DNA of 58,498 bases, counting the filler, from Dugesia japonica (Eukaryota): assembly GCA_001938525.1 (NCBI GenBank). It is 6 parts of 6 records of this genome, joined end to end, with 100 filler letters (N's around TTAATTAATTAA, not from the genome) between each part and the next. Parts side by side here need not be neighbours in the genome. Positions count along the whole stretch, not along the records: positions 27,538 to 39,647 come from MQRL01502468.1; 5 more parts are not named here. One strand, given 5' to 3'. Position 1 is the first letter of the stretch, and each line of letters starts with the position of its first letter. The position numbers were made by a program, and so were the translations under genes. Shown one piece after another: positions 6,031 to 56,780 of the stretch. Under the pieces are notes generated by a model. It was not told the DNA's origin and did not search any database. It worked only from the letters and a program-made list of their open reading frames with translations.

Positions 6031-6597
6031 TTTACAAATGTATTTGAAATTAAAAATACTAATTCATATTACCATAATTATAATAATTACAATTATAAAT
6101 GCATTGAACTTTTTCATAAAAACAAACTCATTAAGTATGAAACTTTTCCATATATAACTAATAAGTCTATATAAAAAACTTATCATTAAATATTTTCTAT
6201 GAATTTATAGTGTTTATGAGTGTTATGTTTNNNNNNNNNNNNNNNNNNNNNNNNNNNNNNATATATATATATATATATATATAATTTAAAATTTATGTAT
6301 AAATACCTTATAAGTAAATATTTTTATGATTGTAAAGGGTTTGTGAAGTTTATGAGTTTAAATTATTTACATAGTTAACTTATATTATTACATAGAAATA
6401 GTGTAATATAGTTTCGTCCGGCAAATACATGATCCCGTCATGTAAAATGCATGCTCGCGTCATGTTCATGACATATTTATAGAAAACTAAAAATAAATAT
6501 TTTTATTAATAATTTCAAATAATAAAAAATTTTCTTAATGACATTTTCTTACGTCAGCACTAGTACACTTGCATTTGTCTTGTCCGGGGGGTCTGGA

Positions 6598-7292: not shown

Positions 7293-8203
7293 AATTAATT
7301 TTAAAGTAAATAATAATGAAATGCAATATATGCATAATAAAAGTCCACAACGTAATATATTAATTATTTGACAATTAAATATCTAAATTTAAATTGATAT
7401 AATTTTTACTTGAATTGTACTTATATTGCATCTGTGTCGGGAAATTTCTGAATTTTTCAATCAAATTGAGTAAATCTGATTTAATGTTAACCGCATATCC
7501 TTGAAAATTCAAATTTTTAAGTCCACGTATTACTAGTTTTCCTAATGAGAACATATTTATAAACAAGACTATATTTATCATGTTTTAAGACAGAAAATAA
7601 TTCTGACTCAAACCAACAGTTATATGTTATTGTTAATGTCATCAAATTTATGTCAACTTGCATATATCAATTATCCTAAATTTTTGTCATTCAAAGTTTT
7701 ATAGTAATCGTTTACATATCGCTTTTCTGTATATTTAATTAATAATATATCAGTCATTATAGATTTCAGATATTACAAAATTGTATAGTATACAAAATTG
7801 TATACATACTTATCCTTTTTTCTGAATAATTACTTAAGATATCAGTCAACCTAAATTTTAAAAATTCAAAATAATATAGTAATTGTATACTTTAACCTTG
7901 GATTGACAATGTTTACCTATTTGAAAGCTCATTTTTCTTTCATCACTTCATCTCTGTTACTTATATGGGTTTTATAAGTTTATTAGGAATTAATGGGGTT
8001 TTGATGAAATTAATTTATCCGATAAAACAAATTATGTATATATTTATGTCTATTTATTAAGTTTATAAGTGTATAGGATTTTTTAACTTTTATTAACATT
8101 TTAGTTTTATTTGTTTTACAAATTTTTATTACGATTAAAGAAATAAGAAAAAATAATTAACATAAAAATATATGTATTAAACAACAAAATAACATAAAGT
8201 TTA

Positions 8204-12709: not shown

Positions 12710-15700
12710 ATGACAGCAATAATAATCAAATGTAACATTTGTAATAAAATATTTAAACGACAATCGGGTCTTGCAACCCATATAAAAAATTGTGGTAAAA
12801 GAAATTATAGATACAAGTGTGTAAGATGTAAGGATAGATTTTTAACACAAGCCGATCACGACCAACATGTAAACGCAAATGTTTGTGTGAATTTATATTG
12901 TTACATTTGTTAGAAAAAATTCCTAATCAAGAAAAAGCGAAAAAACATTATAATAAACCAATCCATCGAAAAATTGAAGAGGATTATACTTATGATTTAT
13001 TTCAAGAACTTCCTCATGAAATAATCGATAAAAAAAATAGAAGATTTTTTTTCTGGTCCTGAATATAAAGATTATAGTATTGAGTTATTAGATGATTCAG
13101 GAATTTCTTTAAAAAGATATGTTGATTCTCCTAATTTAAAAAGTAAAGAATTTTATTATCGAAAAAAGATTGAAAAAATTATTACTAAATTTTTTAATTT
13201 TGGAAAAAGAACTCATGTTGATATTGCAGTTGAGGCTAATTATACAAAAATTTCGGGAGGTGCTAAAAGCGAAAGAAATTATAGATCAAATTCAGATAAT
13301 AAAAAAATATCAGTAAAAGAAAACATTCCTGAGATTACAAAAGATTTAATAACAGATTTAAAAACACAAATTAATGGAGAAAAAACAGAAAGTATTTGGA
13401 CATTAGAATTTATAGTTTATCATAGAGTAAGACTTGGAATTTATAAATCATTAGCCGGGGAACATGTGAAAAATTACCATTTATTAAAAAAGGAATTATA
13501 AATATTGAAAACCATGATAATAAATGTTTTCTTTGGTCAGTTTTAGCACACAAGCATGAATTTGAACATCCAACACGAGTAAGTCAATATAAAAAACATA
13601 TAAACGAATTTGATTTAACAGGTGTAAATTTTCCACCAACAATTGATGATATAAAAAGATTTAAAAAAAATAATGGTTGGCAAGTTAATGTTTTTAAAAT
13701 TGAAGATAACAATAAAATTCCTGAATCTTTACACATTTCTCATTTTCTTTTTAAACCATCACGTAATGAAAAAAAATGTAATTTATTACTTTATAATAAT
13801 CATTATGTCCTTTGTAGAAATTTAAATACACTTGTTAGTTATCACGGAAGCGAAAAAAGTATGTGTTTAAATTGTATGAATGCTTATTCCTCGGAAAATA
13901 AAGTTTATAGACATCAAGAAGAGTGTGTTCATCACAAACCAGCAAAAACTAATTTTGAAAAAAAGAATTTCATGAATTTATAGATTATAATTTTATGATA
14001 AAAAATCCATTTGCAATTTATGTAGATTTTGAGGCATTCACCGACACTAAAGATAATAAACAAAAACCAATTGCACTTGGTATTTATTTTGTAAGTAATC
14101 AACAAGATTTAATAGAAACTTATTATATAAAATTCACAGGTAACAATGTGATAAATGATTTTTTAAAATATTTAGAAGATTTAAGTGAAAAAATTGAAGA
14201 GCTTCTTGAAACAAATTTTGTTGAAAAATATCCTAAAATTTTAAAAGATGAATGTTTTTACTGTAAGAAAACACTAGGCGAAAATACAGAAGAAGTTTAT
14301 AATTTTTTCAGTGGAGAATTTATTGGAGGAGCTCNNNNNNNNNNNNNNNNNNNNNNNNNNNNNNNNNNNNNNNNNNNNNNNNNNNNNNNNNNTTTTCATA
14401 ACGCATCTGGTTATGACAATCATTTATTTTTTCGAGAACTTATAGAAAAACATCAAGATCTAATAAAAGGAATTATACCACACACCGATGAAGAATATAT
14501 TTCATTTTTATTTAAAAAAATTCGATTTTTAGATTCTTACAGGATGTGTAGCCCAGGCACATCAGTAGAAAAAATGGGTGAAACCTTAAAAAAAACTGGT
14601 AAATTTTCTCATTTAAAATCCATTAATTTAAAACCAAAAAAAATTCCATTTCCTTATGAATATTTAAAAAGAAACAATGCGAAAGAAGTTGAGCTATTAT
14701 TAAAAGGTAATTTAATACCCACAAAGGAAGATTTCTACTCTACATTAAGACAGAAAAAAAATAACTTTTAAAGATTATAAAGAATTTTTAAAAGAGTTTT
14801 TAAAGGAAAAAATATGTGGGATCACATGAAACCTTATTTAAAACTTGATGTTTTAATTCTTGCAGATTTCATGGAAAATCTTCGTGAAATTTCTATGGAA
14901 TATTATGGGATTGATTCATGCTTTTGCTACTCAGCTCCAGGACTTTCTTGGGTAACAGGAATAAAATTTACAGGAGCCAAATTAAGATATCCTAAAAAAG
15001 AAAGTTATGAATATTGTTTAAAAAATCAATGAGCAAGTCGAGGCGGAGTTTCTGCAGTAACTGGCGAAAGACAAGTTTTTCCATATAATAAAAATATAAC
15101 AGAAAGGAAATTTACAAAAGCACAAAAAGAAGAAATTGAAAAATGTTTAGAGCGAAGAGAAGAAATTCCAGAGAAATTTTTCAAAGAAACATTTTTAAAA
15201 TATTTAGATCAAAATTCTTTATATGCAACTTGCATGATAAGACCTCTTCCAATGGGTGACTGCATAGAATGTGAAGATTTAAGATATGAAAAATCAACAC
15301 AAGAGTATAATTTCATGTATGAGGTGGATTTAGGATACTATAAATCCACCTCATACATGAAATTATACTCTTATACCTGAAATTCACGAGAAAACGAGGT
15401 ATTTTCCTTTTGGACCAGAGAGCTTAAATATTCAAAAAAATATGGAAGCACCCTATCAACGAAAATTTAATAAAAACATTCAAAAGATAATACAAAATTA
15501 GTACTTTCACAATTTAATAAACTTCATTATTATCTGAAAGGAAGTACATTAGATTTTCATTTTTCTCAAGGAATGAAGTTGAAAAAAATTGATTATAAAG
15601 CAAAAGTTCCAACATCTTCATGGTTAAGACCATATATTCTTTTTAACATTGAAAAGAGAAATAAAGCAAAAAGAAATGGAGATGATTTTGCATCTGATTT

Positions 15701-16438
15701 TTTCAAGTTATTAAATAATTCATTTTTTGGAAAAACTCTTGAAGATGTTTTTAAAAGACAGTCTATAATATTTGTTACAAATGATGAAGAATTTCAAAGA
15801 ACATCAGCAAAATTATCATTTAGATATTTTAAAATATTTTCAAGACATTTAGCAGCAATGCACATGCAGCAAACTAATATTAAATATAATAAATTTCCAA
15901 TGATTGGTTTTGCTATTTTAGAATATGCGAAAGAGATTATGTATAATTTTGTATATGTTCAAATGCAACCATTAATTAGAACAGAAAATTATAAAATTCA
16001 CTACACAGACACAGATTCCCTTTTCGTGGAAATAACCGGGCAAGAAAATTTAGACAAGTTGTCAACACTATTTGGTAGCGAACTCCTTCAAATGAAGGAT
16101 GAAATGTAAAATGGTGAAATTACACATGCAGATTTTATAAGAGCAAACTGTTATGCTTTTAATTATATAGTAAATCATTTAATTGACTATTACAACAAAA
16201 GGGCGCATCAAAAACTAACGATGTGCAAATGGTGGATTATGATAAAATTTTAGAAGAGGCGCAACAAGTGATTTCAGGAATAAATTATAGTTTAAAATCC
16301 GATAGGCATGAAATAGAATTAACTTCTCAAGCAAAAATAATAATGACTGCTTATGATNATAAAGTTTTAATAGAGGATAATGGTATAATAACTTGGCCAC
16401 ACGGAAATCAATTTTACTGTTTTAGATGTGAAGCATGA
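12710..16438 (+). pseudogene. polB: Protein-primed family B DNA polymerase with N-terminal zinc fingers and OTU-like region (frameshifted)
   Basis: CxxC..H fingers at 12710-12970. IINIENHDNKCFLWSVLA and LLLYNNHYV at 13490-13815. ExoI PFAIYVDFEA; ExoII FHNASGYD; RFLDSYR; FPYEY; ExoIII YLKLDVLILADF; SAPGLSW; RGGVS; motif A YLDQNSLY; motif B KLLNNSFFGK; motif C YTDTDS. Confidence 0.95.
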
Positions 16439-16476: not shown

Positions 16477-17089
16477 TTAACCTGTTAATTTATTTAATTT
16501 AAATTTCGGATTTTCAATTTTTGATTTTAAAATTATTTCGTGAACTTCCCGAATCATATTTTTACNNNNNNNNNNNNNNNNNNNNNNNNNNNNNNNNNNN
16601 NNNNNNNNNNNNNNNTGTAGTAATTTCCTCGTCAGTTAAAATATTATCATTCAAGGCCTTTTGTTGAAATAGAAAAAGTTTATATTTAACCGTCTCTAAT
16701 TTTACAATAACATTGCTGTACTTCTTTTTCTTCTTTTGAATTAAAGATGAATTTAATGCACCAGTAATTGGAATTGAAGATCCTATTCCAGTTATTATGT
16801 GAAGATCAATTGTAGTATTTCTTATTCCAATAGGAGTTGCAAAAATTACACCAACAATGGCCACGCCGATTCCAATTATAATTTGAGCAACTTTTATGCC
16901 GTCATCGGCGGCGGTCCATTTTGATTAATATTTTCGATTATGTTTTATTTTATCATTTATAAAGTAAAGGTCATTTTCGAAATCTTTAATTCTTAAGGAT
17001 GAGAGTTTTGATTATAAGTCTTCAAGTGTATAATTACTAATTTCTTGCTGATAATTTTTTAAATCTGGGTACAATGTTTCGTCTGCCAT
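16477..17089 (-). pseudogene. Polinton/adintovirus two-hydrophobic-segment membrane protein (two internal TAA stops)
   Basis: MADETLYPDLKNY...; hydrophobic hairpin QIIIGIGVAIVGVIFATPIG...IITGIGSSIPITGALNSSLI; KKKKKY; C-terminal KALNDNILTDEE. I recognise this pattern from Polinton accessory membrane proteins. Confidence 0.7.
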
Positions 17090-17106
17090 TTTTCATAGTA
17101 AAATTT

Positions 17107-18283
17107 TCATAGTTCATCGAATATTTTTTTTCTTTCTTCTTTTGGACAACAATGAAGAATAATAAGGTTGTTAATATAAAGATTCGGTGGTAAAATTAAA
17201 TGAAAATTTTTTATCGATATGCTCGCCATTAAATTTCTCGTAAAAGTATCTTCTCCCAAAGAAGGATATTCACGCCCGCTTCTACCATCCGTTAAATTTA
17301 AAGAGTTTATTTCTAATTTAAATTTCCCAGGTTTAAAAGTAAAATCTACAATCTCATCAGAACCGACAAAATTAAAAATAATACTAATTTTAGGTGTTTT
17401 CGTATATCCTGAAATAAAAATGCATATTGGACCGGTAGCGATTTTTAATGAAAGATAACGTCTTAAAGGACCTTGAAGAAAAAAATATAATATTTTTTCA
17501 TTAGAATATTTCCAAAAACCATTTATTATTACTTTTTCTAAACATCCGCGATCTGAGTGTTCTGTATAATAGGGAAATTTATTATTATCTTTAATGAAAA
17601 AAAAACATTTTAAAAAATATAAATCCAACGATGGAAATATCACACCAAAATAAATAATTATTAAGTAATTCTTTTATTTTTTCTAATGGCAGCAGAGATT
17701 TTGTTTTTTTATATATTTCTAAATTTTCATTAATTTTAATTTTATGTTTTTCACTAAGATGTGCTTTATCTTTTCAAATTCATCTAGTAAAGGAAATAAT
17801 GGATCATTTTGTTTTTTTATAATAGAAATTTCTTCACCACTAGTTTTTTTTTAAAAGTTCAATTTTGTTTTTTAAACCTTTAACATCGTTTTTTAATTCT
17901 GGATTAATTTGTTTTTTTAAATTTTCAACATCATCTTTTATTTGGAAGAAAAACTTGAAAATAAATTTTTTGAGAAATTTAAAATTTACTAGATTTTCTT
18001 CTTCTTTAGGGTCACTAACCAATTTAAATTTATCAATTTGATTTTTTAAAAATTTTAAATTTTCTTCATTATTAGATTTAAATTTATTTTTGAGAAATTT
18101 TAAATTGACTGCATCCAGGTCATCTTTAGGCTCGTCTAGAATTTTTAAGGATTGAATAGCATCACCAGTTTCATTTACAAATCTTTTTTCATTGGTAGAA
18201 TCTTGTATTCTTAGTTTACTAGAAATTATATTTAAGAGTTTGGTGTTATTCATCGTTTGTGGGCTTTCTCCAAATATATTCAT
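17107..18283 (-). pseudogene. Putative virion fibre/spike gene (shaft ORF 17840-18283 and beta-rich ORF 17107-17643, probably one frameshifted gene)
   Basis: MNIFG start; FVNETGD; two neck-like repeats EPKDDLDAVNLKFL and DPKEEENLVNFKFL followed by coiled coil. The ATG is separated from the protease stop by 4 nt. Confidence 0.55.
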
Positions 18284-27537: not shown

Positions 27538-30500
27538 TTTCCTTATACCATTTGGCTTTGACTTTGATTGTTAATTTACCTTGGTTTATTTCGTAATCTG
27601 ATCAACGTTTGAGGCAATGTTTCGTGTCATGTTCTGTTTATTGTGATTGTTCGCAGACTTTGTTTTAACGTTTTGTGCAACCTCTCTATCTTCTCGTAAC
27701 ATTGTGGGCTGTATTCACTAGTTATGCTCTTTTTAATGTCATATTTGTTGCACAGATTCTTGAGCAGTTGTGACTCGAATTGTGTACCCTGATCGGTTAA
27801 AGTTTTTGGTTGCTCGTTGCTTGCGAACCAATTTAATTCTATGTTTTTGCAAATATTTTAATGGTATAACTTCAAACCAGTTTGTTTTTCTGTCACTCAT
27901 TGTTAACAAATATTTATATCCGTCATTTGGTGGTAATGGTAAATTCCTTAATTTCTTGTCTCATTTTTGGTCAGATGTATTTATTATGAATCATCTCGTA
28001 TGTCAATTTGTTTCCAGGGTGTTGTTTGTTGTGAATCCGGGTTTTCTATTAACTTCTAGATTCTTTTAGTAGAAGGATTCTTATGTTTCCTTCGTTTTGC
28101 ATGTCGCACCAGACATTGTTTATTTTTGTTAGTTTTAGCGAGGATTTTGACGGCATTTTGTTTATTGTTTCAAATTGTTTTTGCCTGATTTCTTCAATAT
28201 TGAAACAGTTAGTAAATTCAATCAAATTGACTTCACTTTCAACTCTTGATAGTGTATCTGCTGCTACGTTTGATGCTCCGGCTATATAATTCATTTTGCA
28301 TTGAATTGTGAGATAAAATTCAATTGATGTATTTCCCTGAGAGAGGTAATTTCATATCTATTGCATGTACAAGAGGTTTGTGGTCTGTGTATATTTCGAA
28401 CATTCTTCCTTCTAACAAGTATAAGGAGTGATTTATTGCCTCTTGTATTGCGAGAAGTTTTCTGTCAAACATTGAGTAGCGTGTTTGTTGCTTTTTTATT
28501 TCTTGGAGAAGAATTCTAGTGGTAGTTTTCGGTTTTTATTCTCCTGAAATAATTTGGCTCCCATTGCAATTCTTGATCAATTCGTTGTTAGAATGTATTC
28601 TCTGTTTGAATCAGCGTATCCTTATAGTATTGCTTTGAATGGACTGTTAATAGCATTTTCAAAACCTTCAGTATATTCTTTTGTCCAACTTATTTTCACA
28701 TTTGATTTTGTTCAGGTCGATCAATGGAGCTAAACATTTAATGCATTTCGGGATATAAGAGTGGTAAAAGTTTACCATTCGCAAATATCTTCCAAATTCC
28801 CTTGTTGTTTTTGGCAGTTCATATTTCTTTATATTGCTTGTTTTGTTTTCTATTGGATTGATTCCAAAATGATTTAGTGTGTGTCCTAGAAAATCAATTT
28901 TTTGTTTGAGGAATTAATATTTTTTTTACGTTTAATTTTAAGTTATTGTTGCCTAGCGTTTTGCAAACTTACTAGAGTGGGAGCCATTTTATTTCAGGAT
29001 AATAAAAACGGAAAAAACAACTATTAAGTGTTGTTTCTTTGAGGGACTCGCAATTAAAATATCATCTAGCTTTTTTATTTTCTTTTAGGATCTGACCTAT
29101 GAATCTTTGAAAAGTAGACGCTGCATTTCTGAGTCCGAAAGGCATCATGTTGTACTTGAACATCTTTACTGGTGTGATGATAGGTGTTTTAGCTATGTCT
29201 TCTTTCCTGATTGAGATGTGATGATATGCGTTTTGCAAATCATTTATTGAAAAGACCGTAGCCACATTTACTCTGTTTATGATATCTTTGATAATTGGTA
29301 ATTGGTAATTGTCCGATGGCGTTATTTTGTTAAACATTCTGTAATCACCCCAGGCTCTCTATTCTCCGTTTCTTTCTGTTTGAAGATTAGTGTGAATGAC
29401 CAGTTTGATTTCGATCGTTTGACGATATTGTTTTTCTCCAAGTTTGAAAATATTGTTTCCGTAATTTCTGTTTTATAAGGATCGAGTTTCCTAACTTTCG
29501 GCTGAACTGTATCACAATTAGTTATGATAGCGTGCTCTGTTATGCACTAATAATTTCCTGTTATTTGTAATTCTTCGGTGATGTGCTTATATTTATTTAA
29601 TAAACTGTTTATTTCATCGGGATTATTTTGCTTCTATGGTTGTCTATTAGGGTAATGTTTACCACTCCAATATCAATTTTATTTTGCGCTCTTCTGTTGA
29701 ACTACGCAGTATTTGTTGTACTATCTTTGTTTTTGTTTTCAATGTATTTCCTATTGTCACAATTAACCTGCAATTCGTGGGATGTCAGGAAATCGGTTCC
29801 TATTATTGCCTTTTGGACTTCAGCAATTGTGAAGGTCCATTTGTAGGTTATGTTATTGACGGTGATTTCTATTTGGTTGTCTCCGAATGTTATGTTAATG
29901 TTTTGTTTGTTTTGGAGTTGTTTTTGAATATGAAGTGAGGGAGAAGTGAAATCACTGAGATAGTATCTATTAAAAATTCAGTATTGTTTGAATGCAATGT
30001 GAAAGTGTGATGGTTGTCACCGAATGTAGGTGCTATCACTAGTGACTTTTTTAGTTTCCTTTATTGGGATTTTATGAGCATGGCTTGATGCACTTGTATG
30101 CTTTGTTCCCAAATTTGTTATAGAAGTAGCATAAATCTGTTCTTCTGTTTTCATGGTTATTAAATAACGGTCGAGGGGTTTCGATTTCTTTAGTTGGATC
30201 TGTTTTGGGAGAATGCCTTTGAATGTGGTCTACTGTTGTAGTTCCTGTGCAAGATGTGTTCTCGTGGATGAGAATTCGTTATTTCGTTTAGTTCATCCCT
30301 GATTTTCTGGTTTTCAGTGAACAATTCTTTCATTTTGGACATCAAGGATTTCACTAACATTTCCATGTTATTGTTTTTTGAAGAGTTTTGTTCCACACTT
30401 TCGTTCTTGTGGTAATTATTATATTTCTTAGTACTGAAAATTGTAGGAAAAGTCTCTTCGTTAATTTTATCGACGATTTCCGCCAGTGTATTGAGATTAT

Positions 30501-32123
30501 AAGTATTGCTTGCTGCCAGGATTCTTCTTATTTCGGGGGTCATCGTTAGCATAAAAATTTCTTTAAGCAGCTCATTTGATCCGCGATTCGTGATATTTGG
30601 CTGCAGGTATTCGAGTTTTTGTTTTAACAGGCGTAGAAATTCGATGGGTTTATTAGTCCTTAGTATGGTATTGTTAAGGCAAGCTTCTAGCATTTGCCTC
30701 CTGTTTATTTTATTTTTATTTATTAATAGTGTCAAATGAGTTTTGAGAACTCGGATTATCAACATCAAAATTAACCTCTATAAAATTTATTTCAAAATAA
30801 AAACTATACACATAATTTGTTTTTTTCCAAACAAATTTAATAATTCATATTTAAAAACGGAAAATATTAAATTCTTAAATTTTATTAATATCTCATTTTA
30901 AAACACTAAAATAAACATATTCCATTCATTTAATTTAAAATTTATTATATTTAAAATATATTTATATTCTTAAATTTTATTAAAATCTAATTTTAAAACA
31001 CTAAAATAATAATATTTCATTCATTTAATTTATTCATTTATTTTATAAATTATTTTCCTGATACAAATTTAAATATACTTTTGATTTTAATAAATTACGT
31101 TTTAAAAATACAAAAAAATTTAAGTCTGTTTTTAAAAGAACTATTTTATAAATATGCTGCATAATGTTTTAAATCGTTCATCTTCTTTTGCGAGTGAACC
31201 GATTTAGTGTGAAATTTAATTTAGAACATTGCTAAGGAGTGCCAACAATGTGCGTGAGAACAATGTTTTGGATGATTTGGTTCCAGATAGTGTCAAGGTT
31301 AGCTTAACGAAATCCAGCCACTTTTGTGGAGTTCCATTTTCGTCGTTGAAGTAGTTAGGGATGCTTATTTTTCGATTTAAAACTAATTTAATGTTCAGCT
31401 CTTCATTTATTTTTGGATCGCTTTCGCCGTTAGATACATTCATTTCTTTGACTTCAAATTTTATATTTTTATTTCTTTCTTTATTCAAATTTCTTGTTGT
31501 TTTTATGTCTGCAAAGAAATTTAGTCAGATTTAGAATATGGCATACTGTGTTCAGCCAAAAGAGTTGTTGAACCTTTATTAACAATTCTAAATTGTCAAC
31601 GTTTGAAGAACAAATTTTTTATCTGTTTTCAATTTACAGGTTTTAGTTTAGGGGTTTATTTTTTCCTTTTGACACCAATTTGTAAAGTTTAGTCGAGCGC
31701 AATAAGCTGGTTGGGGCTTGATTAATTTCATTTCTATGAATGTCTTAACTTTTTTAAATTTGATGATTTTATTTATTTATTTTTGTTTAGGCTGTTGTAC
31801 TTGTGTGGAGAATTCTGTAGGGTCTAAGAGAGTCACCAGAAAATGTGTAGGGACACTTTTGGTGTATGTTGTGTTAGATAATTTATTTTACAAATCCTCC
31901 ACTCAAATAAAATAACTTAGATTAATAATAATAATAAAAATAAATTATATAGGCTAGAGTAAATATAGGGAATTAGAATAAATAAATACATTTCTAATTG
32001 TATAAAATAATTATTATTTAAATAAAGCTACCATAATAATATTTAAACAAACAAGTACGAACAAAGTTCGATCCAGTTAAACGACTAATAAAATAACTAA
32101 GCAAATAATTTTTCTATCATACA
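27538..32123 (-). mobile_element. Decayed Ty3/Gypsy LTR retrotransposon (5' LTR-PBS-gag-PR-RT-RNaseH-IN)
   Basis: Gag at 31488-30190 with CYFYNKFGNKAYKCIKPC knuckle (~30080-30135). Protease FLIDTISVISLLP. RT GDYR...DLQNAYHHI...MPFGLRNAASTFQR and LDDILIAS. RNase H YTDHKPL and NVAADTLSR. Integrase GYKYLLTMSDRKTNWFEVIPL and TDQGTQFES. Confidence 0.93.
31832..32123 (-). repeat. Putative 5' LTR (~31846-32123, TGTA...TACA) and primer-binding site TGGTGAC (31832-31838)
   Basis: TG...CA ends, AATAAA on the minus strand, and TGG a few nt past the LTR end. The second LTR is not in the contig. Confidence 0.55.
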
Positions 32124-32239
32124 TTTAGTTAATCACAATCTTGAAATTTCATCAACAATAAGCTATGTTATCTATAAGTTGTTGTAAATGGATCTTGTTA
32201 TGGAATTATATTATACTCTATTGGGTGTCATAAATTTGA

Positions 32240-34513
32240 TGATACAAAACCAATATTGTCAGATAAAAAAAACCATTTCTACAAGCTACGCAAGAAATGC
32301 TAATTCCGAAGCCTACATTTTTTGTGGTTCTTCAGATACTGAAGAAGATTGGATGCAAACCACTAAGTAATTTGACATATTTAATCAAATGAGGATTACT
32401 TTTGCATTTGATATGTTATTACGAGGCAATGCCAAGGAATTGTGACAAGAAACTAACACAAACGAGAATTTCAATTCAAATGAAAAGTGTAAAAATTGGT
32501 TTCGATTAACATGTATTAACGATAAATCTCTGGTTGACAAAATTACAGATCCATCATGAGTTAAACAAACCATTGATGAAAAACATCGGAATTTCGAAAT
32601 AAGAGTAAAAAAGCTTGTTCACGATATATTTGAAAGCAAAAGATCACNAGAAGAAATATCAAGAGTTTTTATTCTGAATGGTTTAAGAAGAGAGANACTT
32701 AAAGAATCCTTTGCACTCCAACCAGAATTAAATGACGAAAAACGCCGAGAATCGGCTGCAAACCTTGATAAATTTGTAGCGAAAAGTAATGTAAATGTTG
32801 TCAACGAAAGCTTTGCAAGTGCAGTTAAGAAATCAGCTATCAAACCAAAATTTAATAAAATGGGAAATGATTACATAGGACCATATTTTCACCACAAATA
32901 AAATACTCCAAAATATTCTAAAATTTCTAGAAAACCGACAAACGATTCAAGAATTGGTAATAATATACAACAATTAAAAGATATAAATAAAGAACAAAGA
33001 AGACAATTTCCAAAACATTCTCTGAAATATGTAACAACAAAAATTTATAATAGATGCCATGGTAAAAATAGGTGTGTAATATGCGGTAAAGAAGGTCAGG
33101 CTTTCAGAAATTGTGCATTATTATAAAGAGGACACAATAATCAAAGAATATTATGTAGAGCGAAACAAGAAAGGGAAGAATCCTTAAATAAATGTAACTC
33201 GTTAATTGATTTTGAACATGATGCAATAAATATCTTAGAAAATAATGAAAACAATGTGTCTATCTTGTCAGGGAGGTTGCATTAAAGAATTTTAAACAGA
33301 AAAATTGGGATATTGATAGGAGACCTGATGTTAAACTGATGTATCAAAAACAAAATGGTAGAAATTGGAGCAGTGTAAATTGTAATGGAATTAGTGTAGA
33401 GATCTTGTAGAAAGCTCAAGTTATGATAAGTTATGAAAGTATCATAAAAATTCAAAAAATCAAATTACCAAAGAGATAATTGAATATATTAAAGATCAAA
33501 GCTTCCAAGTTAGTAAAAATTTAAATAAAATTAAATAATTCAGAGATATTGATAAATTGGTGGAAGAAGATATATTGCTGTTTCTTGATAAAAATTTTAA
33601 GATGATTGTTTTAGCAGGTAAATCAGTGGTTGATTTAATAAATTACATTCATGAAGAAGTATGTCACTTGGGAACGAGAAAATGAACTGAATATATTCAA
33701 ACAACTTATTTTTAGCCTGATATGTTCAGAAAAATTGAACATGAGTTTTAAAAAATGCTTAATTGGCAATCAAAGGAAACATATACAGGCAAAACAAAAG
33801 AATTATTTTTAACTCGAACCGAATTTGGAGCATTAGAACAGATTTTCATTGATATAGCTTATTTTGATAAATCAAAGTTAAAAAAGAAATATATTTTAGT
33901 CATTATATATCAATACGGCAAACTTGTTAGCCTGCCAGCCATGGCAAAACAAGACAAAAAAGCTGTAGTTGAATCAATAAAAGAGAATTGGATATATAGA
34001 TTCGGCAAGCCCAAATCCATACTGACAGATAGAGGCAAGATATTCGAAGGAAAATTGATGCAAGGATTGACTCAGAAATTTGGAAGAATTTTCGTCTCCA
34101 TACCAACATCAATCAAACAAATTGGTAGAAAGAACGATCAGGACACTACGTGATATGATTGTCACTACAATAAAAAGGGGATGTGAAGACGTTAGTTTAG
34201 ATAAGCTATTACCTCGAATTCAATTTTCAATTATTGCAACCCAAAAAAAGGCAAATGGAGTATCACCGTTTGAAATAATTTATGGAAGAAAACTTAAGAT
34301 TCAGAGACCATTACTAAATGATAATACAAGCAGTGGAGAAGTTAGATAATTAGTTGATAAAAATTTGAAAAATGCTGCACTGAAATTAAATAAATATGAA
34401 TCAGATAAAAAATTACATCGGAATCTTGTTGAAGTGGAAGAAGTTCTAGTAAAGGTAGAACATCACAATTTAAAGAAAATGGATACATATATGAAGATCC
34501 TTTTGAAATAGTA
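32240..34513 (+). mobile_element. Decayed Ty3/Gypsy element: gag + integrase, RT/RNase H not recognisable (deleted)
   Basis: Knuckle CVICGKEGQAFRNC (~33073). IN zinc-binding IHEEVCHLG; EQIFIDIAYF; ILTDRGKIFEG; SSPYQHQSNKLVERTIRT; GVSPFEIIYG; GPY/F-like YEDPFEIV. Confidence 0.88.
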
Positions 34514-34517
34514 GGTA

Positions 34518-34883
34518 GATTGGTCAGCATGACCCAATCATTTTGATCGGTCAATTCAAAAAAATTCTCTTACCCCGCTACCCCTTCATCCGTCGCGAAA
34601 ATAAATTAAAGTGGGGTCTGCGATCGTATGAGTTATCGCGGTTATATCGATTATTGATTATCGATCATTGATTATCGATTTTTGATCTGATTGATTATTG
34701 ATTATCGATTTTCGAAATGAATATTGATTTTTAAAGTGATTTTTGATTTTTAAGTGTTTTTTAATGTGAAAGTTCGTTTTAGAGTGCTCGGAAGAGAGGG
34801 AGGGAAGGTCGAGGAGATCAGCAAAGGCGGCATAAGCGTCTTGGAATTCACCAATCAAAATAATGAGGTCATGCTGACCAATC
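34518..34883. promoter_or_regulatory. 366-bp cassette bounded by 43-bp inverted repeats with double CCAAT boxes; internal TATCGAT tandem array
   Basis: 34518-34560 GATTGGTCAGCATGACCCAATCATTTTGATCGGTCAATTCAAA vs reverse complement of 34841-34883 GATTGGTCAGCATGACCTCATTATTTTGATTGGTGAATTCCAA; four TATCGAT at ~34645-34710. Confidence 0.7.
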
Positions 34884-35764
34884 CAACTCGGAATTGTCTT
34901 AATTAAGTCTTATTGTTGAAATTTCATATTTTTTGTTTTAATGAACAAATAAATTAAGCGGGAAATTCAAGTTTTAAAATAATTTGGAGAGAAATTCAAA
35001 TTTTATGCAAAACTTTTTTACAAGTTATTTTTTTCAAAAAATTTTTTGGCGCCAAATTTAAAATTTTTTCTTCTTTTTGTGTCTTCTATCTTTTTTTTAA
35101 TATTTTGTTTAATCTTTTTTTATTTTTTTTATTTTTTATAAGGTTTCGATGATGTATTTCAATAGACTTTTTAAGTCTGTATGTAATGAAATAGACAAAT
35201 TTTTACAAAAATGTTCCTGTTGGTTACAGTGACGCGTTTTTCGATTTCAGTTAATAGGTTCTAGTTTCGCGGTTTTTTGTTGGATTTGGATGAACTTTGC
35301 TTTGATTGAAAGAGGAACATGGGTGACAAGTGATGGTAAAAAGGTTTAGTAATTCATATGTGACGGTGCTTGTGTTTGTGTAAAAATGCGTTTTTTTATA
35401 TGAAAATCGCGACAGAATGGGTAACGGGTGATAATTTTCGTGTTTTGAAGGTATATTTGAGTTTGACATCAAAATCAATCTATAGATTGTCAAAGGTAAC
35501 TATGAGCTAAAATGTTTGTGTGTTGCATGAATCCCGCTTTTGTGTTGCAAAAATGACTTTCAAGTATATTTATTGGTTTTATGAGATAAACAATTATTAA
35601 AAATTATTTCACATGTGATTTTGAGTGATTTTGTGTTGCTTATTTGTTGAACCAGAGTTGCATCCTTAATGCATTATTTTTTTTTACTCATTAAAATTAT
35701 TTACATTAATTCAATAAAAAAAACAATTTTCAAAATAACATTTATTAATAAAACAATCCTTTAA

Positions 35765-36120
35765 AATTTCATAAAATATAACTATCAAAAAACTTCAACT
35801 TTGTGATATTTTCATGATAAAATATAACTCTTAAAATATAACCAAAGAGTTGAATCCATAGATATTTACATGTTTTATTATGGAATATAATTAAAATTAC
35901 ACAAAGAGCGGAGTCCATGGGTAATTGCATGATAAAATAAATGAAATGTATATTCAAAATGACCAAAGAGTTTAGTCCATAGATATGCTTTATTATAGAA
36001 TATAATTAAATTATTCAAATGAGTGAAGTCTATGTGATATTTACATGAAAAAATATAACTATTAAAATATAACCAAAGAGCAAAGTCGTTGTGATATGTA
36101 CATGATAAAATATTCAAATT
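35765..36120. repeat. Degenerate tandem array, ~55-60-bp units (with ~115-bp higher-order period)
   Basis: Recurrent AATATAA...CAAAGAG....TCCATAGATAT...CATGATAAAAT. Confidence 0.8.
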
Positions 36121-36756
36121 AAAACATTTCTTTACAAGATGATAAGAAACATAGAACGTTTTTCATATAACCATATTACTAGTGACACTTTTCTTTAAAC
36201 ATCCTATTACTAGTTACAATATTCTAAAAATTAACATATTAATCATGCAATTTTTAATAGAAAACATATTAGCTGAGAACATTGCTGAGAACAATATGAT
36301 AAAAGCGTAGAACGTTTTTTCTTAAAAATCATAAATTCATGGAACCTTTCCATATATAACTAATAAGTCTATATAAAAAATTAAAAGAAAATCTTTTTAT
36401 GATTGTATAGGATTAATGAGTATAGGGTTTATGAGTATATTATTTACATAGTTACCTTGTATTATTTACATATTAACCATGTATTATAAAGGTTTATGAC
36501 TATATTATTTAATATAATATATAATTTACATAGTAACCTTGTATTATAAGGTTTATGAGTATATTATTTACATATTAACGATGTAATAAGAGGTCACCNT
36601 GCAANATGTATGTTCATAAAATTAATTATCGTACATTAATTTATTCAAAATATTGTATAACTTAGTATTTAAAAAACCCTTCTTAATTTATTAATTATAA
36701 AATAAAAATAAAAGAAAACAATAATCCAATAAAATATTTATTAATATAACATTTAT

Positions 36757-37266
36757 TAACACGACATTTTTTTAGCATATTCATCAGCCATCTTCAAAAT
36801 CATTTCTTTTAAGATTTCATAATGGTTCTTGTTTTCATTGAAAGTGTAATCCTATTGAAATTCTGTTGAAATATTGTTCATAACTTGAAACATGTATATT
36901 GCTTTTGTCAGCAATAAATGTTTAAAATATCCATTAATCATCAACAACATATATTTATGAAGAAATTCTGGAAATCTTTATGTAATTTCTCAAAAGCTAA
37001 TTCTAAAAAAACAATCAAATAAAATAACAATATAATAAACTCTTACCATAATAATTTTCATAATTTCTGCCATCAATTGCAGTATAACAACTATCATCAT
37101 CATCATCATGACATGTATCTTCCATCTTTTCATCTTCAATAGTTTTTTCTTCATTAATATTGATTTTTCCGTAATCATTGGCTTCCATTATATTTTCTAT
37201 TTCTTCATTTTCAAGTCCTTCTTCTCCTTGGACAGTGTTTTCAAAAAATATTTCACAAGTATTCAT
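36757..37266 (-). pseudogene. Small acidic accessory gene remnant with a probable 44-nt intron (37003-37046)
   Basis: ORF 37015-37266 is E/D-rich. G|GTAAGA donor and TTTTTAG acceptor join YY to ELAFEKLHKDFQ in frame; the downstream part is frameshifted. Confidence 0.35.
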
Positions 37267-37531
37267 TTTGTAAAAATTGAATTTATTTTAAAAACAAGTC
37301 CTATGTATATAAACCCGGTAACCAATCATAACTGTTAAAACAAATATTAACAAATCATATCAATTTTAGCAAACAACAACTAATCGGAATCGTTAAAATA
37401 AATATAAACGAATCATATCAATTATAGCAAATAATATCCAATAGGAACTCATAAATAACGAGTATGTGTGTATCATAGCAAGTATATAAACAGCAGGTTT
37501 TGTAAAATAAGTCACTTTTACAATTATTATA

Positions 37532-37844
37532 ATGAACCAAGTCGAAAGAGGAATTAAGCAAATTACTGATGCAATTACGATTGGATCCGTTGACGAAATG
37601 AATCAACTAGAAAGAGATTAAAAAATTGGCAGATGAAATTACCAGTGGATCCATTGATCACATTCAATTCCTAAGCAGGATCAACAATAGTCTATTGAGA
37701 AAACATGAATATGTTGAACTCATTGTACGATCAATATTCATGGACAAAATTAAGGAAGAATTGAAGATCCAAAAGAGAAATAAATTTATTGCTGTAACGT
37801 TATTGTCATCCATTGTGATATTTTATTTGTTTGGTTGTAATTAA
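37532..37844 (+). pseudogene. ~104-aa tail-anchored protein with a 22-aa tandem repeat and BH3-like motif (one frameshift at ~37615)
   Basis: TATATAAA at ~37483, ATG at 37532, AATAAA at ~37872. MNQVERGIKQITDAITIGSVDE / MNQLER(E)IKKLADEITSGSIDH ... KRNKFIAVTLLSSIVIFYLFGCN*. Confidence 0.55.
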
Positions 37845-38076
37845 TGTAATTATTATTATTTTTGTTGTTTAATAAATAGATTTGAATAATAATTTTGTTT
37901 CTTTCTTGTATTATTTATATAAAAAACTTATAAGTAAATAGTTTCTTTGAACTACAATTGGTTTATGAGTGTATTATTTACATAGTAACCGTGTATTATA
38001 GGGTTTATTTACATAGTAACCATGTAAAAATTAAATATATAATAACAAACTTAATAAATAGAGTACTTTTTTAGTA

Positions 38077-38270
38077 TTACTTTAGAAAATTAACAATAAT
38101 TTTGTCAACAAAACATACATTTCGTATACTACAAATACAAGCAAGTAAAAATGTAATCTGTAATGTTGCTTCTTTATTATAAACAGTGTTTTCTCTCAAG
38201 TAAACAGCTATATAATATTCTCCACATAGATTTTTGTATGAGTATCCTCGACTAAGGCAATGTTTACTGA
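38077..38270 (-). pseudogene. Possible remnant of Polinton cysteine protease downstream of the capsid gene
   Basis: Manual translation HCLSRGYSYKNLCGEYYIAVYLR...DKIIVNFLK* has a CG(E)Y motif; position next to the MCP fits. Heavily eroded. Confidence 0.3.
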
Positions 38271-38363
38271 AAGGTACTTACCCAAGTAACTTTGATGCAC
38301 TCCGTTCAATCTGAATAGAATTAAAAAATAAATTAAACAATAACTCTTACTTTATTGCAATTT

Positions 38364-39300
38364 CTAAACCAATACCGTTCCATTTTCTTTAATCTGAATT
38401 TCATTTTCAAATACTCCATAAAAATATAACATAAGCCGATGTTGTTAAAGCTTTGGCAAACTTGATATCCAATCTCAAATTTCCTTGTTGAGGTAATTGA
38501 CTCTGATTTATATCGAAATCTGGAGCAAGAACAAATGCAAAGAAGGGATAATTATACTTAAAATCTTGAAGTGTTATTCCACAATTCATATTCTTATCGA
38601 AAAATCCTATATTTCTTACTATAGATTGCATATATGTTGTGGTATAATTATCGTCTGTAAAATCCTGAGTATATATTTCTCGATAATCACTGTTTTTTAT
38701 CAAGGAAACGGAAACAGGATCTTAACTTTTAAATGTTGAACTCGAGCTTTTATAACTACCATTATATTGTTCAACACTTTTAAATGTAACCAAAATAAAG
38801 CTAGGTAATCGATGATCACCAAAGATTTGTTCCTTATAAAACGATGAACTATCTTTACTAATTGCAAATGCAACGAGTTCTTTGGTTCTTATTGGATGAA
38901 CAGCATTTTGCTTTTTTAACCCCATTTAGTGAGCAACTAGTACTGAGGGTTCAATGCGTACACGTCTAATCATTAATTTGGCATCTAGTAATACATATTT
39001 AGGTTCATTAGCTGCAGATTCCAAACAAATCTTAGAAGATGATCGTTTCAATCGAATTTGAACATTGACACCCGGAATAAGGTATTTCGGATGATCCATG
39101 AAATCGAGTTGCAAAGAATCACATAGACAATTGTTTAGATTTTGCAATAGACCTTTTTTATCTGCTTCTGATCCATATCCCATTGCTGCAAGACATATAT
39201 TCTTACTATCGCCGTTATAGTTCAAAGTAATTCTCAGATTTGTTGATTTAATTTTCAAATTATTAACTGTTAATATTACAAAACAAGTCAAAAATTTCAA
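38364..39300 (-). pseudogene. Polinton major capsid protein (double jelly-roll, F54H12.2-like), C-terminal two-thirds
   Basis: LQLDFMDHPKYLIPGVNVQIRLKRS; DAKLMIRRVRIEPSVLVAH; RLPSFILVTFKSVEQYNGSYK; PFFAFVLAPD; GNLRLDIKFAKAL; frameshifted tail YGVFENEIQIKENGTVLV*. Confidence 0.88.
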
Positions 39301-39647
39301 AGAAAAGTTTGATCTTTCACTTTTATTAACCTAATTCTATGATCAATAGCTAGGTCGAATTATTTTTTTAGAAATAATTTATACAGGGCTGTTAGATAAT
39401 TTTAAAAATTTGCAAATATTTTAAAATTTAATGCAATGTTATTAGTTTAAATTTTTTAATGTAAATAATTAGTAAAAAATTTTAATCATGAAGATTTGTT
39501 GCTTTATTTTTTAAGTTACTGAAAATTCGAAGTTTTAGATTTCAAAAATATATTTTTAATAAATATGATAAAATTGTTTAAATTTATTATTTATTCAAAA
39601 ATATAAATTGGGAAAGGCAAGTTTTGAAAGAAGCGTTCAAAAAGAAA

Positions 39648-39949: not shown

Positions 39950-42663
39950 CAATGGAAACTGGATAAAGAATAGCTGCGACTAACATGGCGTTCCACGCAA
40001 GTGTGACAAAGAACCTGCTCGTACAAGCTTTGAGTCTGAGAACATAGAAAGGGAGATGACGTTGAGAAATTTATAGTCAAATGCCAAAAGTATTTCGATG
40101 CAGCAAACGTAACCAAGAGTACCAAAAAACTTGTAATTATGGGTCTACTGGACGATAAATTGAGAAGAAGATTCGAAAAGACCGATGATAGACATGGTTA
40201 CGAAGATAGACTAAGACATTTAGTCGTCAAAAAAAAGTCATTAGTAAAGGATAATGGAAGCATATTGTCATACAGACGACAAAAATAGGATGTTGACAGC
40301 ATCGTGGAAGAAATTAACAAGATGGTGGAGTTACTGATGATAAGAAAGAAATGCGAAAATAACTTCTTATGCATTGTGTTGTATGCAACAGCGGCGAAAG
40401 AAAAATGTGGCAATCCAAAAAATTAAAGATTCTGAGGTAATTATTACGCTGATACGAAGTCTTGATAGAATTGAGGATAAAGAACCGATAAATGCAATGC
40501 GTCCCAGTTACAGAGGAGCCCTGATGAACAATAACCAACAATATAATACATTCAAACATCAAGAGAACTACCAGACAAACAGAAATCCAAAGCCGATGGA
40601 CAACAAACAAAAGGAGATATTATGTTACGGTTGCAATAAGCCGGGGCATATTGAAAAGACTGCCCATCGACACCCATAAAATATTTCGGATGCGGATTTA
40701 CCAAACACATAAGGCGTTTTTGCACGGAGATAAAATGCCAAAAGTGTACACTTAACAAACATCAAGCAAATGAATGTAGAACGTCAGATGGAAAAGACTG
40801 TCCGAGTATGATAGAGGAAAATGGGGTGGTAAAATGGGTCAAACGATAAAAGTTCAATACAAAACGAAATATCAATGGGTGAAATATCATAGACACAGTC
40901 AGAGACGAATCACCTAACAGAGAAATAAATGAAATCAAATACGATGATGACGACAGATCAGGAAAAGGATAAAGCAAAAATAGGCACCCAAATAGAAGGG
41001 CTCCGTCAGAAGACGAGATGATAGGAGCCTTATAATAAACATAACGGAAAGTGTTACTCGAAACGGAGGTCAATCGGTGTGTATCGAGATGGAAATTCAA
41101 GATAAGCCCTTTGGTTGTTTGCTGGACACAGTAGCAAAAATTAACGTCATGAGTGACAGAAATCTTAAGGAACTGAGCAATATTGTAATACAGAAAGCAG
41201 ATGTAAAATTACGATATGCTAACAATATGATACTGGAAACGCTAGGGCAGATGGTGGTTGAGATATGTATCAGACAACAAAGAGAAATGGTTAAATATAC
41301 GATAGAAAAACCGGTGTGTCCAGACATTATAGGAAAAACAGATCTACAACAGCAATCCGGCTTTCAGTCACAAAGAAGATCAATCGAAGAGAATGAAATA
41401 CACATTGGTATTTTAGAAGTAAAATTTGGAAGAATTATATCAAACGAAGAACNGGAGCAGCAAGATATAAAAATAATTCAACCAAACAAAGAAGCACGAA
41501 AAATAAAAGCAGCTAATAGACCAGCGTTCATGGCTGACGATTGGGATATTGGATGTACCATGCTAGTGAAGCATAAAATTATAACGGAAAAAAAGCCAAT
41601 AAACATAATACCATGGCGTTAACCGATGAACTTAGAAGACGAGATTAAAACAACACTACAGAACTTAGAAGAAAACGGTATCAGGAAATGTAATTTAAGA
41701 TGGAATATGCCACTTGTTTGCATATGGAATAAAGAAAAGAAAAAGCTGAGATTATGTTTAGACTTTCGCCAGCTGAACCAAATATCGGAGAGACAGGATA
41801 TCCAATGCTACACACGAAAGAACTGCTAGATAGATTAAATGGAGCCCGTTCTGTCAGCACAATTGATCTAGGCAATGTGTATTATCAGGTTAAATTGGAG
41901 GAATTCTCGCAGGAGAAAACCGCTTTATTCACCAAAAAAGGTCAATACTGGATATTCAATACAGTAAAGGCAAAGCACATTCCAATGCAGACATGCTATG
42001 AAGAATGGAGTGCGAAACTTGTGTACAATGTGAAATGCAACACAAAGAAGCAATGTCATGTAAGATTAAAACATGAAGACTATGTACGATGACAACGGAT
42101 ATGGAGTTCAAATGGTAGAAGAAGAATGTTGAAATAAAAGATTTAAAAAGGATCATCGACGAAGGCAGGTGTTCAGAATTCACAATAAAAAAGGGATAGT
42201 TAAAACAAAAAGCGACAAAATATAGATTCCAAAAGAGAAACAGTCAGAATGGATGCACGCGAGTGAAGAAAAGATGTTACATTATATTACAAGTGGATAT
42301 GATATGATAAATATGCTCGAAATAGTAACAGAGACAACACGAACATGTAGAGATTACCAAAGGAATAAAGTGAACACATCAATAACGAAAGAAGAGAAAA
42401 TAACACTGGAAGCTAACCATGTATTTGAAAAGATCCATATCGACGTATGTGGACCGTTCAAAGAAACACTACGGAGAAAGAAATATATTCTAGCCATAAT
42501 AGATCACTATAGTAAATATATATCATTGTCGGCCAGAGGAAGACAGGATGAGGAAACCATATGCAAGGTAACCATGGAAAAATGGATCTTACGGTTTGGA
42601 GCACCAAAAGAAATACATAGTGATTGCGGGAAGACCTTCAAATTAAAGGCGTTTATATATTGA
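39950..42663 (+). mobile_element. Decayed Ty3/Gypsy element: gag (three CCHC-like knuckles)-PR-partial RT-IN
   Basis: CYGCNKPGHIEK(DC), YFGCGFTKHIRRFC, CQKCTLNKHQANEC; PR LLDTVAKIN; RT LRLCLDFRQLN...IDLGNVYYQV...KTALFT; IN FEKIHIDVCGPF...IIDHYSK...RFGAPKEIHSDCG. The RT YxDD motif and most of RNase H are missing. Confidence 0.92.
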
Positions 42664-55735: not shown

Positions 55736-56780
55736 TTAAGGTAGTCGGAAAGTCTTTAGACTATTTATTAGTAACTTTATTTTGGTCAATTATATAGTTT
55801 CATTAATAAATTTTTAACGTTTAACTGGTTTAAAAAATTTTAAAATGGTCGATTTGATCTTGATGACCAACCACGTACNGGACGTCCGTTATCGATTGAT
55901 CCCGAAGTTATACATCAAGCTGCAGAAACCAAACCCATTATAAGTCAAGATGACTTTCAGGAGAACTCAATTTGCCCAAAACAACGGTCCATGATCATTT
56001 GCATAGGCTGAAAAAAGTCAACAAAAGATGTAGGGAAATTCATCATGAACTAACCTATAAACAACAAAAAAGAAGGATCGAAATTTGTCAAAAACCTCTT
56101 ACAAAACCCATGTGATGAACGGTTTTTTAAACGAATCATCACTTGCGATGAAATATTGATTTATTTTAGCAACTATAACAGGCAAAATCAGTGACTCGAT
56201 CCAAATCATCAAGCTCTTGCTGTACTATGAAAAGAAAGGTTCTTCTCATCGTATGGTAGAATTACGAGGGAATAGTCTATTTCGAGCTTCTTCCAAGCGG
56301 ACAAACCAATAATGCTGAACTCAATTCCATGCAATTAGAACATGTACATGAAGCTTTGAGTTCCTGTTATCATTCCTTAGTCAATCGTAGATGCGTTATT
56401 CTTCAACAGGATAATCCCAAACCGCATACTTCGAAGGTAACGCACCAAAAGATTGAAGAGCTACAGTATGATCTTCTACCTCATCCAGCCTACGGTCCAG
56501 ACTTAGCGTCTTCAGATTACCACTTTTTCAGGTCAATGACACATTCTCTACGGGGACGCTTCTTTGCTTCAGTGGACGAGGTAGAAAATGCCTGCCGAGA
56601 ATTTTTCGATTTCAAAGAAAGTGCATGGTACGCCAGAAGAATCTATCTGCTTGCAGAAATATGGCAGAAGACTATTGAGCATAATGGTCTGTATTTTAAA
56701 GAATAAAATTTTGTTTAATGTATTTTATTAAGTTTTTATATTTTGTTTTAATTAGTCTAAAGACTTTCCGACCACCCTAA
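55736..56780 (+). mobile_element. mariner (DD34D) element, 1045 bp, TA TSD, 5' part of transposase deleted
   Basis: 28-bp TIRs TTA(A/G)GGT(A/G)GTCGGAAAGTCTTTAGACTA with TA on both sides. RIITCDE; QQDNPKPH...HPAYGPDLASSD with 34 residues between the two Asp. Confidence 0.96.

What the first reader, a model, noticed from the sequence alone, without database searches (positions are those of the whole stretch)
37532..37844. Candidate virus-encoded BH3-motif, tail-anchored apoptosis modulator
Seen: a gene with TATA, ATG and polyA signal. Restoring 2 nt in a GA run (~37615) gives two 22-aa repeats, the second reading LEREIKKLADEI, plus a C-terminal KRNK-FIAVTLLSSIVIFYLF membrane anchor. Known: BH3 motifs (BIM IAQELRRIGDEF, PUMA IGAQLRRMADDL) share this hydrophobic-x3-hydrophobic-x2-hydrophobic-small-D-E-hydrophobic spacing. 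Bcl-2 family proteins are tail-anchored, and adenoviruses encode a Bcl-2 mimic (E1B-19K). Inference: a Polinton accessory protein acting on the host Bcl-2 network; I know of no described example. Caveats: the motif is short and has Ile at the conserved Leu position.
Basis: partly seen in the sequence, partly recalled or inferred. Interest (0 to 1): 0.7.

Follow-up and report, generated by a model that had tools for sequence, protein, structure and literature searches.

The report
Polinton tail-anchored protein; BH3 look unconserved

Summary
The gene is real, but this copy is frameshifted near 37610-37620. A natural intact relative exists (P0001, 112 aa, 79% identical). It belongs to a family of 17 compared proteins of 78-112 aa, all ending in a hydrophobic anchor. 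The Polinton link holds: the gene lies beside a capsid-like remnant, and a distant member sits just upstream of an A32-type packaging ATPase.

Asp is kept in 4 of 17, Leu in 6, Gly before Asp in 0, and small residue + Asp in 2. The best-conserved residues (G40, Y61, R67, Q46, V66) lie outside the motif. The 22-aa duplication occurs only in this lineage. Models show two helices, not a Bcl-2 fold. Polinton-type viruses with Bcl2 homologues are already in print (PMC8502044). Related copies give strand-biased RNA (16:1) while the capsid remnant does not.

Verdict: a conserved Polinton membrane accessory protein for which I found no description; BH3 mimicry about 10%.

The parts
37483..37489 (+). 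TATA-like box, 49 nt before the ATG; initiator-like TCACTT at 37512-37517
   Evidence: such boxes occur 1.7 per kb on this scaffold, so position is the only support
37532..37621 (+). 5' piece of the broken gene (29 codons to a stop): first 22-codon unit and start of the second
   Evidence: family HMM built without window rows or P0001 hits it at E=0.0017
37532..37597 (+). Extra copy of helix 1 (66-nt tandem duplication), seen only here and in P0001
   Evidence: 48 of 66 nt match the next unit; the other 16 of 17 members have one unit
37611..37844 (+). 3' piece of the broken gene (77 codons to the stop): rest of helix 1, loop, long helix, anchor
   Evidence: 79% identical to P0001; family HMM E=2.7e-26
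37617..37640 (+). BH3-like stretch as encoded (IKKLADEI): end of amphipathic helix 1
   Evidence: hydrophobic stripe kept in 17 of 17, small + Asp in 2 of 17
37647..37730 (+). Conserved family core: Gly turn, I-Q-[YF]-L loop, E-Y-V-x-L-x-V-R start of the long helix
   Evidence: top five conserved columns G40, Y61, R67, Q46, V66 (P0001 numbering)
37773..37841 (+). Basic cluster KRNK followed by a predicted C-terminal membrane anchor with no charged tail
   Evidence: KD 2.03; family range 1.28-2.57 in 17 of 17
37871..37876 (+). AATAAA polyadenylation-like signal
   Evidence: RNA strand bias ends in the bin 37824-37907
38336..39330 (-). Broken major-capsid-like remnant (two in-frame stops and a frameshift), convergent with the gene; repeat depth falls off after about 39250
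   Evidence: Atlas feature scores 0.96-0.97 to clusters partly carrying Capsid_NCLDV (10%) or DJR-like (12%) families, recognition value below the tool's bar; breaks; depth
37018..37287 (-). Divergent acidic ORF remnant of the same repeat, no family found
   Evidence: high repeat depth
39648..39747 (.). Artificial scaffold linker closing the scaffold (27538-39647) that holds the gene

Best explanation
This is a frameshifted copy of a conserved small Polinton-type accessory gene whose intact product is predicted to be tail-anchored in an organelle membrane and likely binds a host partner through its conserved loop and long helix rather than through a BH3 motif. The product would be inserted by its C-terminal helix into ER or outer mitochondrial membrane, leaving a two-helix hairpin in the cytosol. 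The hydrophobic stripe of helix 1 likely packs on the long helix or on a second subunit. The invariant Gly, Arg and near-invariant Tyr, Val, Gln likely form the working surface. Related copies appear to be transcribed without the capsid gene, so an early or latent host-facing role is more likely than a late structural one. Shown: gene, break, family, anchor hydrophobicity, neighbours, conservation pattern, strand-biased reads. Predicted: two-helix fold, tail insertion. Inferred: organelle, partner, timing.
For: Family of 17 proteins, 78-112 aa, 23-48% identical to P0002. All have a C-terminal hydrophobic 19-mer (KD 1.28-2.57) with 0-8 residues after it and no comparable N-terminal segment. Conservation peaks outside the BH3-like stretch. 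Two AlphaFold models give helix-loop-long helix (pLDDT 74/pTM 0.40 and 80/0.57). Polinton-type context in two lineages: capsid-like remnant here and a Pox_A32 ATPase (E=1.4e-7) plus TBP-like gene beside P0011. In oligo-dT run X22, first mates lie 16:1 on the minus strand over the gene (28.0 v 1.7), which in most stranded libraries means sense RNA; over the capsid remnant the ratio is 1.09:1.
Against: No partner, location or activity was measured. Only one outside virus gave gene context (three contigs of the same virus), and there the gene abuts the packaging ATPase, which fits a virion role as well. The RNA evidence is one run of unrecorded strandedness; 593 of its 806 laid reads are under 90% alike, so they come from other copies; the bias begins upstream of the TATA box (from about 37236); X21 gave only 45 reads. 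The loop is the least confident part of both models. Organelle cannot be told: anchor KD and tail charge (+1 to +3 in the last 8 residues) span ER-like and mitochondria-like values by the rules in PMC5450235 (passages).
Confidence: 0.5

Rival explanations
1. Virion-module membrane protein: a small anchor that tethers the packaging ATPase or capsids to a membrane, or a viroporin-like exit factor, as small membrane proteins do in PRD1-type phages or as adenovirus death protein does (both recalled, not tested).
For: In L002-L004 the gene lies 67 nt upstream of an A32-type ATPase on the same strand, followed by a small basic protein. In the window it flanks the capsid gene. The conserved length and a long helix running into the anchor fit an oligomeric membrane stalk.
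Against: Gene order differs between the two contexts. Related copies give stranded RNA while the capsid remnant does not. It has its own TATA and polyA-like signals.
Confidence: 0.3
2. BH3-only mimic: helix 1 inserts in the groove of host Bcl-2 proteins from a mitochondrial tail anchor, in the whole family or only in lineages such as P0001 and P0030.
For: The four hydrophobic positions are kept (h2, h3, h4 in 17 of 17). P0030 reads IEQELKRLSDEI, with Leu, Ser and Asp in place. If Asn, Gln and Glu are allowed at the acidic place, as PMC9171138 section 8 says can be tolerated, 13 of 17 pass. A tail anchor is present. Adintoviruses do carry anti-apoptotic genes.
Against: Asp 4 of 17, Leu 6 of 17, Gly before Asp 0 of 17, Leu + small + Asp together 1 of 17. 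The relaxed acidic test is not special: neighbouring exposed positions score 17 of 17 and 15 of 17 on the same letters. The position after h1, small in known BH3 ligands (recalled), is E/N/D/Q in 17 of 17. The hydrophobic stripe alone appears in 77% of shuffles. The strongest conservation is elsewhere. The first repeat lacks the Asp in P0001. PMC9171138 says such patterns have little predictive value. This copy's tail has no charge after the anchor.
Confidence: 0.1
3. Not a gene: chance frames in AT-rich repeat DNA joined by the reader.
For: The frame is broken; TATA and AATAAA are frequent here; no Pfam, PHROG or PDB family.
Against: Intact natural relative at 79%; 17-member family with shared length and anchor; stranded RNA from related copies.
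Confidence: 0.01

Closest known systems
Adintovirus/Polinton accessory genes (Adintoc, Oncoid, Bcl2 and IAP homologues; PMC8502044)
   Same: Small accessory gene beside capsid and FtsK/A32 ATPase genes of a Polinton-type element; no hit in standard libraries, as for the Adintoc groups. TBP-like genes are also listed for some related MELD viruses.
   Different: Not a Bcl2, IAP, PLA2X or GasderminX homologue by any search here. Whether it equals one of the numbered Adintoc groups could not be checked: their sequences were not in the supplement text that could be read.
BH3-only proteins (BIM, PUMA, BAD type)
   Same: Amphipathic helix with i, i+4, i+7, i+11 hydrophobic spacing and a C-terminal anchor.
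   Different: Leu and Asp are not conserved across the family; Gly is absent; the rest of the protein is conserved and predicted helical, whereas BH3-only proteins are largely disordered with little conservation outside BH3 (PMC8998228 passages).
Viral Bcl-2 homologues (adenovirus E1B-19K, poxvirus M11L type)
   Same: Virus-encoded, membrane-associated.
   Different: These are pro-survival proteins; the solved poxvirus ones have a seven-helix Bcl-2 fold with a groove. This family is 78-112 aa with two predicted helices, one of which includes the anchor.

Membership tests
BH3-only / BH3-motif proteins | Four hydrophobic residues on one helix face (h1-h4) | tested here: met
   h2, h3, h4 hydrophobic in 17 of 17 and h1 I/L/V/Y in 17 of 17; but the spacing alone occurs in 77% of shuffles
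BH3-only / BH3-motif proteins | Leu at h2 (almost invariant) | tested here: not met
   Ile in the window and P0001; Leu in 6 of 17, or 3 of 12 below 60% identity
BH3-only / BH3-motif proteins | Conserved Asp between h3 and h4 | tested here: not met
   Present in this lineage, but 4 of 17 (3 of 12) in the family, rank 61 of 79 columns; D/E/N/Q 13 of 17, no higher than other exposed positions
BH3-only / BH3-motif proteins | Gly or other small residue before the Asp | tested here: not met
   Ala here; Gly 0 of 17, G/A/S 6 of 17; small + Asp 2 of 17
BH3-only / BH3-motif proteins | Conservation concentrated in the motif, rest disordered | tested here: not met
   Top-ranked columns lie 3-30 residues after the motif; models helical at pLDDT 74-80
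BH3-only / BH3-motif proteins | Binding in the groove of Bcl-2 proteins | not testable with these tools
   Needs a binding assay or a complex model with a host Bcl-2 protein
Bcl-2-fold proteins (viral Bcl-2, E1B-19K-like) | Multi-helix Bcl-2 fold with BH1/BH2 groove | tested here: not met
   78-112 aa; both models have two helices; no Bcl-2 Pfam among hits to E=1 for 12 of 12 members scanned
Tail-anchored membrane proteins | Single hydrophobic segment at the C-terminus, short tail, no N-terminal signal | tested here: met
   17 of 17: KD 1.28-2.57, 0-8 residues after it; best N-terminal 15-mer KD at most 1.15. Sequence test only
Tail-anchored membrane proteins | Mitochondrial targeting signature (lower hydrophobicity, basic tail) | tested here: inconclusive
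   Mixed values; the window copy has KD 2.03 and no charged tail, P0001 1.73 and +1
Polinton/adintovirus accessory gene | Linked to capsid or packaging ATPase genes | tested here: met
   Capsid-like remnant on the same scaffold; Pox_A32 ATPase next to P0011 in 3 of 3 contigs of one virus. Context unknown for the other 15 members, and P0001's own contig was not seen
Polinton/adintovirus accessory gene | Same element carries pPolB, integrase and terminal inverted repeats | tested here: inconclusive
   Scaffold is 12 kb and the remnant is truncated; the polymerase-like gene is on another scaffold; no whole genome held

The most novel reading that the evidence does not exclude
Helix 1 is a degenerate BH3 ligand in at least some lineages (P0001, P0030), making this a tail-anchored viral BH3-only mimic that integrated Polintons express in host tissue, duplicated in this lineage.
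Probability: 0.1. Interest if true: 0.65.

Novelty: new member of a known kind. Interest (0 to 1): 0.25.

Why it matters
It defines a conserved Polinton-type membrane protein family with no Pfam, PHROG or PDB match, useful as a marker and as a testable host-interaction candidate that appears to be transcribed from integrated copies. If BH3 mimicry held it would be a rare viral BH3-only protein, but the family data make that unlikely, and Polinton interference with Bcl-2 pathways is already suggested in print.

Tried and rejected
Whole genome: none held, so paralogues could not be read whole.

Viral-contig scans: P0001, P0013, P0008, P0031, the L003 ATPase and the capsid piece found no relative. 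P0006 and P0009 each gave one weak hit, L001 and L005, rejected as chance matches in phage contigs. Metagenome scan with alignment A4 found none.

Dropped rows: P0004 and P0005 are long repetitive proteins, dropped as chance hits. Near-duplicate cluster members P0015-P0018 and P0020-P0027 were left out of the counts.

Longer or fused forms: none among 8000 candidates scored, weak evidence.

Libraries: Pfam, PHROGs and PDB sequences gave no family shared by the members. Atlas gave no usable feature hit for P0001. Fold searches gave no match at E<=0.001 and best Z about 6, typical of generic helices; a BAK chain at Z 4.9, 4% identity, rank 18 is within that background.

SHOCT-like and half-CARD readings of the loop were considered from memory; no Pfam hit supported them.

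No RNA holder was listed by the index. Reads could not give the share of intact copies: depth dips at the break and no piece spans the stretch. Earlier scan notes: none.

Paper searches (listings only) for Polinton + Bcl-2, adintovirus + apoptosis, Polinton + TBP and viral BH3-like mimics showed no description of this family; subscription papers are not covered.

Full report
Setting. The window is about 25% GC and holds remnants of mariner, BED-finger, Gypsy-like and Polinton-like elements; an animal host is my inference, and the species was not identified. It is not one contig: five 100-nt N/TTAATTAATTAA linkers join separate scaffolds. The gene lies on the scaffold 27538-39647. The polymerase-like gene at 13025-16435 lies on another and cannot be counted as linked. 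No whole genome is held.

The observation. The frame from ATG 37532 stops after 29 codons; the remaining 77 codons lie in another frame and end at 37844. A natural, intact protein of 112 aa (P0001) is 79% identical to the second piece and continues into the first. A read-through with X at the break matches it at 81 of 104 columns. The 66-nt duplication is real (48 of 66; score 70 against a shuffled maximum of 38). TATA-like, initiator-like and AATAAA signals are well placed, though common here. The neighbouring capsid-like gene is broken too, so this copy is a relic.

The family. A full HMMER scan with P0001 gave 14 proteins at E<=0.001, of which 2 long repetitive ones were dropped. A profile search added 4, and one cluster member was included, giving 17 natural whole proteins of 78-112 aa; 12 remain below 60% identity. 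Sixteen of 17 have a single helix-1 unit, so the duplication is particular to this lineage. All 17 end in a hydrophobic segment with at most 8 residues after it. Pfam, PHROGs, PDB sequences and the Atlas name no family. Two AlphaFold models, of P0002 and P0030, show a short helix, an 18-19-residue loop and one long helix that runs into the anchor. Fold searches returned only generic helical matches.

Polinton link. The minus-strand remnant at 38336-39330 scores 0.96-0.97 by Atlas features to clusters that partly carry double-jelly-roll capsid families (10-12% of members; recognition value below the bar, so a strong lead rather than proof). Independently, P0011 was found on 3 metagenome contigs of one virus, 67 nt upstream of a Pox_A32-type ATPase and near a TBP-like gene. 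A TBP-like remnant also lies on another scaffold of the window (E=1.4e-5). Reads show a very high-copy repeat: 17,818 and 13,650 contigs laid in two runs, ending near 39250. Context is thus known for the window copy and for 1 of 17 members only.

The BH3 test. PMC9171138 (passages and section 8) and PMC11209288 (passages) define BH3 by four hydrophobic residues, a near-invariant Leu, an Asp and usually a Gly before it, and warn that such patterns predict poorly. In the family the hydrophobic stripe is kept (17 of 17), but that spacing occurs in 77% of shuffles. Leu is in 6 of 17, Gly in 0, a small residue in 6, Asp in 4, small + Asp in 2 (P0001, P0030), and Leu + small + Asp in 1. The Asp column ranks 61 of 79. 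The top five are G40, Y61, R67, Q46 and V66, all after the motif. But other exposed positions of the same helix reach 17 and 15 of 17 on those letters, so this is the make-up of a charged amphipathic helix. The position after h1, small in known BH3 ligands (recalled, no call), is never small. With two helices the protein cannot be a Bcl-2-fold protein like the solved viral ones. Binding was not tested, so a lineage-specific BH3 is lowered, not excluded.

Expression. In the oligo-dT run X22, first mates over the gene lie 16:1 on the minus strand (28.0 v 1.7), which in most stranded libraries means sense RNA, and the bias ends near the AATAAA. Over the capsid remnant the ratio is 1.09:1, as DNA carry-over or read-through would give. 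Most reads (593 of 806) are under 90% alike, so they come from other copies; some differ from the window by an indel at the break (5 of 15 reads). Limits: one run, strandedness not on record, bias starting upstream of the TATA box, and only 45 reads in X21.

Mechanism. Most likely (0.5): a tail-anchored accessory protein in ER or outer mitochondrial membrane that shows a helical hairpin to the cytosol and binds a partner through the conserved Gly/Gln/Tyr/Val/Arg surface, acting early or in latency. The anchor values are mixed between ER-like and mitochondria-like by the rules in PMC5450235 (passages). Rival (0.3): a membrane tether or exit factor of the virion module, from its place beside the ATPase. 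Rival (0.1): BH3-only mimic.

What is known. PMC8502044 (passages, sections 3.2 and 3.4, text of Fig. S2) reports Bcl2 and IAP homologues in adintoviruses and gives numbered Adintoc names to conserved unknown genes. Fig. S1 (slides) could not be read and Table S1 was not seen, so this family may be one of the Adintoc groups. PMC8998228 (passages) notes that some animals have lost Bcl-2 genes; the host's state was not tested. PMC11161782 (one passage) added nothing. Seven listing searches showed no description of this family.

Verdict. New member of a known kind; interest 0.25.

Noticed in passing
window 9459, 18435, 27438, 39648, 48664: The window is six scaffolds joined by 100-nt linkers (N44-TTAATTAATTAA-N44); neighbours across these points are not real neighbours.
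   Followed up: yes
window 7459-7651 (-) and L002 1281-1718 (-): Broken TBP-like remnant in the window matches a TBP-like gene (Pfam TBP E=4.8e-16) on the contig that carries family member P0011, pointing to a TBP-bearing Polinton-type lineage. TBP-like genes are mentioned for MELD viruses in PMC8502044 Fig. 5.
   Followed up: partly
window 12838-16435 (+), 16565-18283 (-): Broken protein-primed DNA polymerase B-like gene (weak Pfam DNA_pol_B_2 hit, E=0.024, motifs seen by eye) with converging small ORFs on a separate scaffold.
   Followed up: no
window 5282-6020, 34958, 35045: Clusters of E2F-like sites (TTTGGCGC/GGAAA; label recalled) in the Polinton-like stretches of two scaffolds.
   Followed up: no
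window 6344-6396, 36421-36590, 37955-38038: A 20-45-nt repeat unit (TTATTTACATAGTAACC core) recurs in Polinton-like intergenic DNA, has very high genome depth and varies in copy number among reads.
   Followed up: no
L003 586-1646: After the family gene come an A32-type ATPase, a 61-aa Lys-rich protein and a small ORF of no known family: a compact virion-module-like run.
   Followed up: partly
window 37525 (reads of run X1): 34 laid records leave the window sequence just before the ATG and continue with a different start, so related copies have another 5' end.
   Followed up: no
window 27630-34350 and 40040-42660: Several decayed Gypsy-like retrotransposon pieces (integrase rve hits E=8e-8 and 3e-11); mariner-like transposase at 56260-56703.
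   Followed up: no
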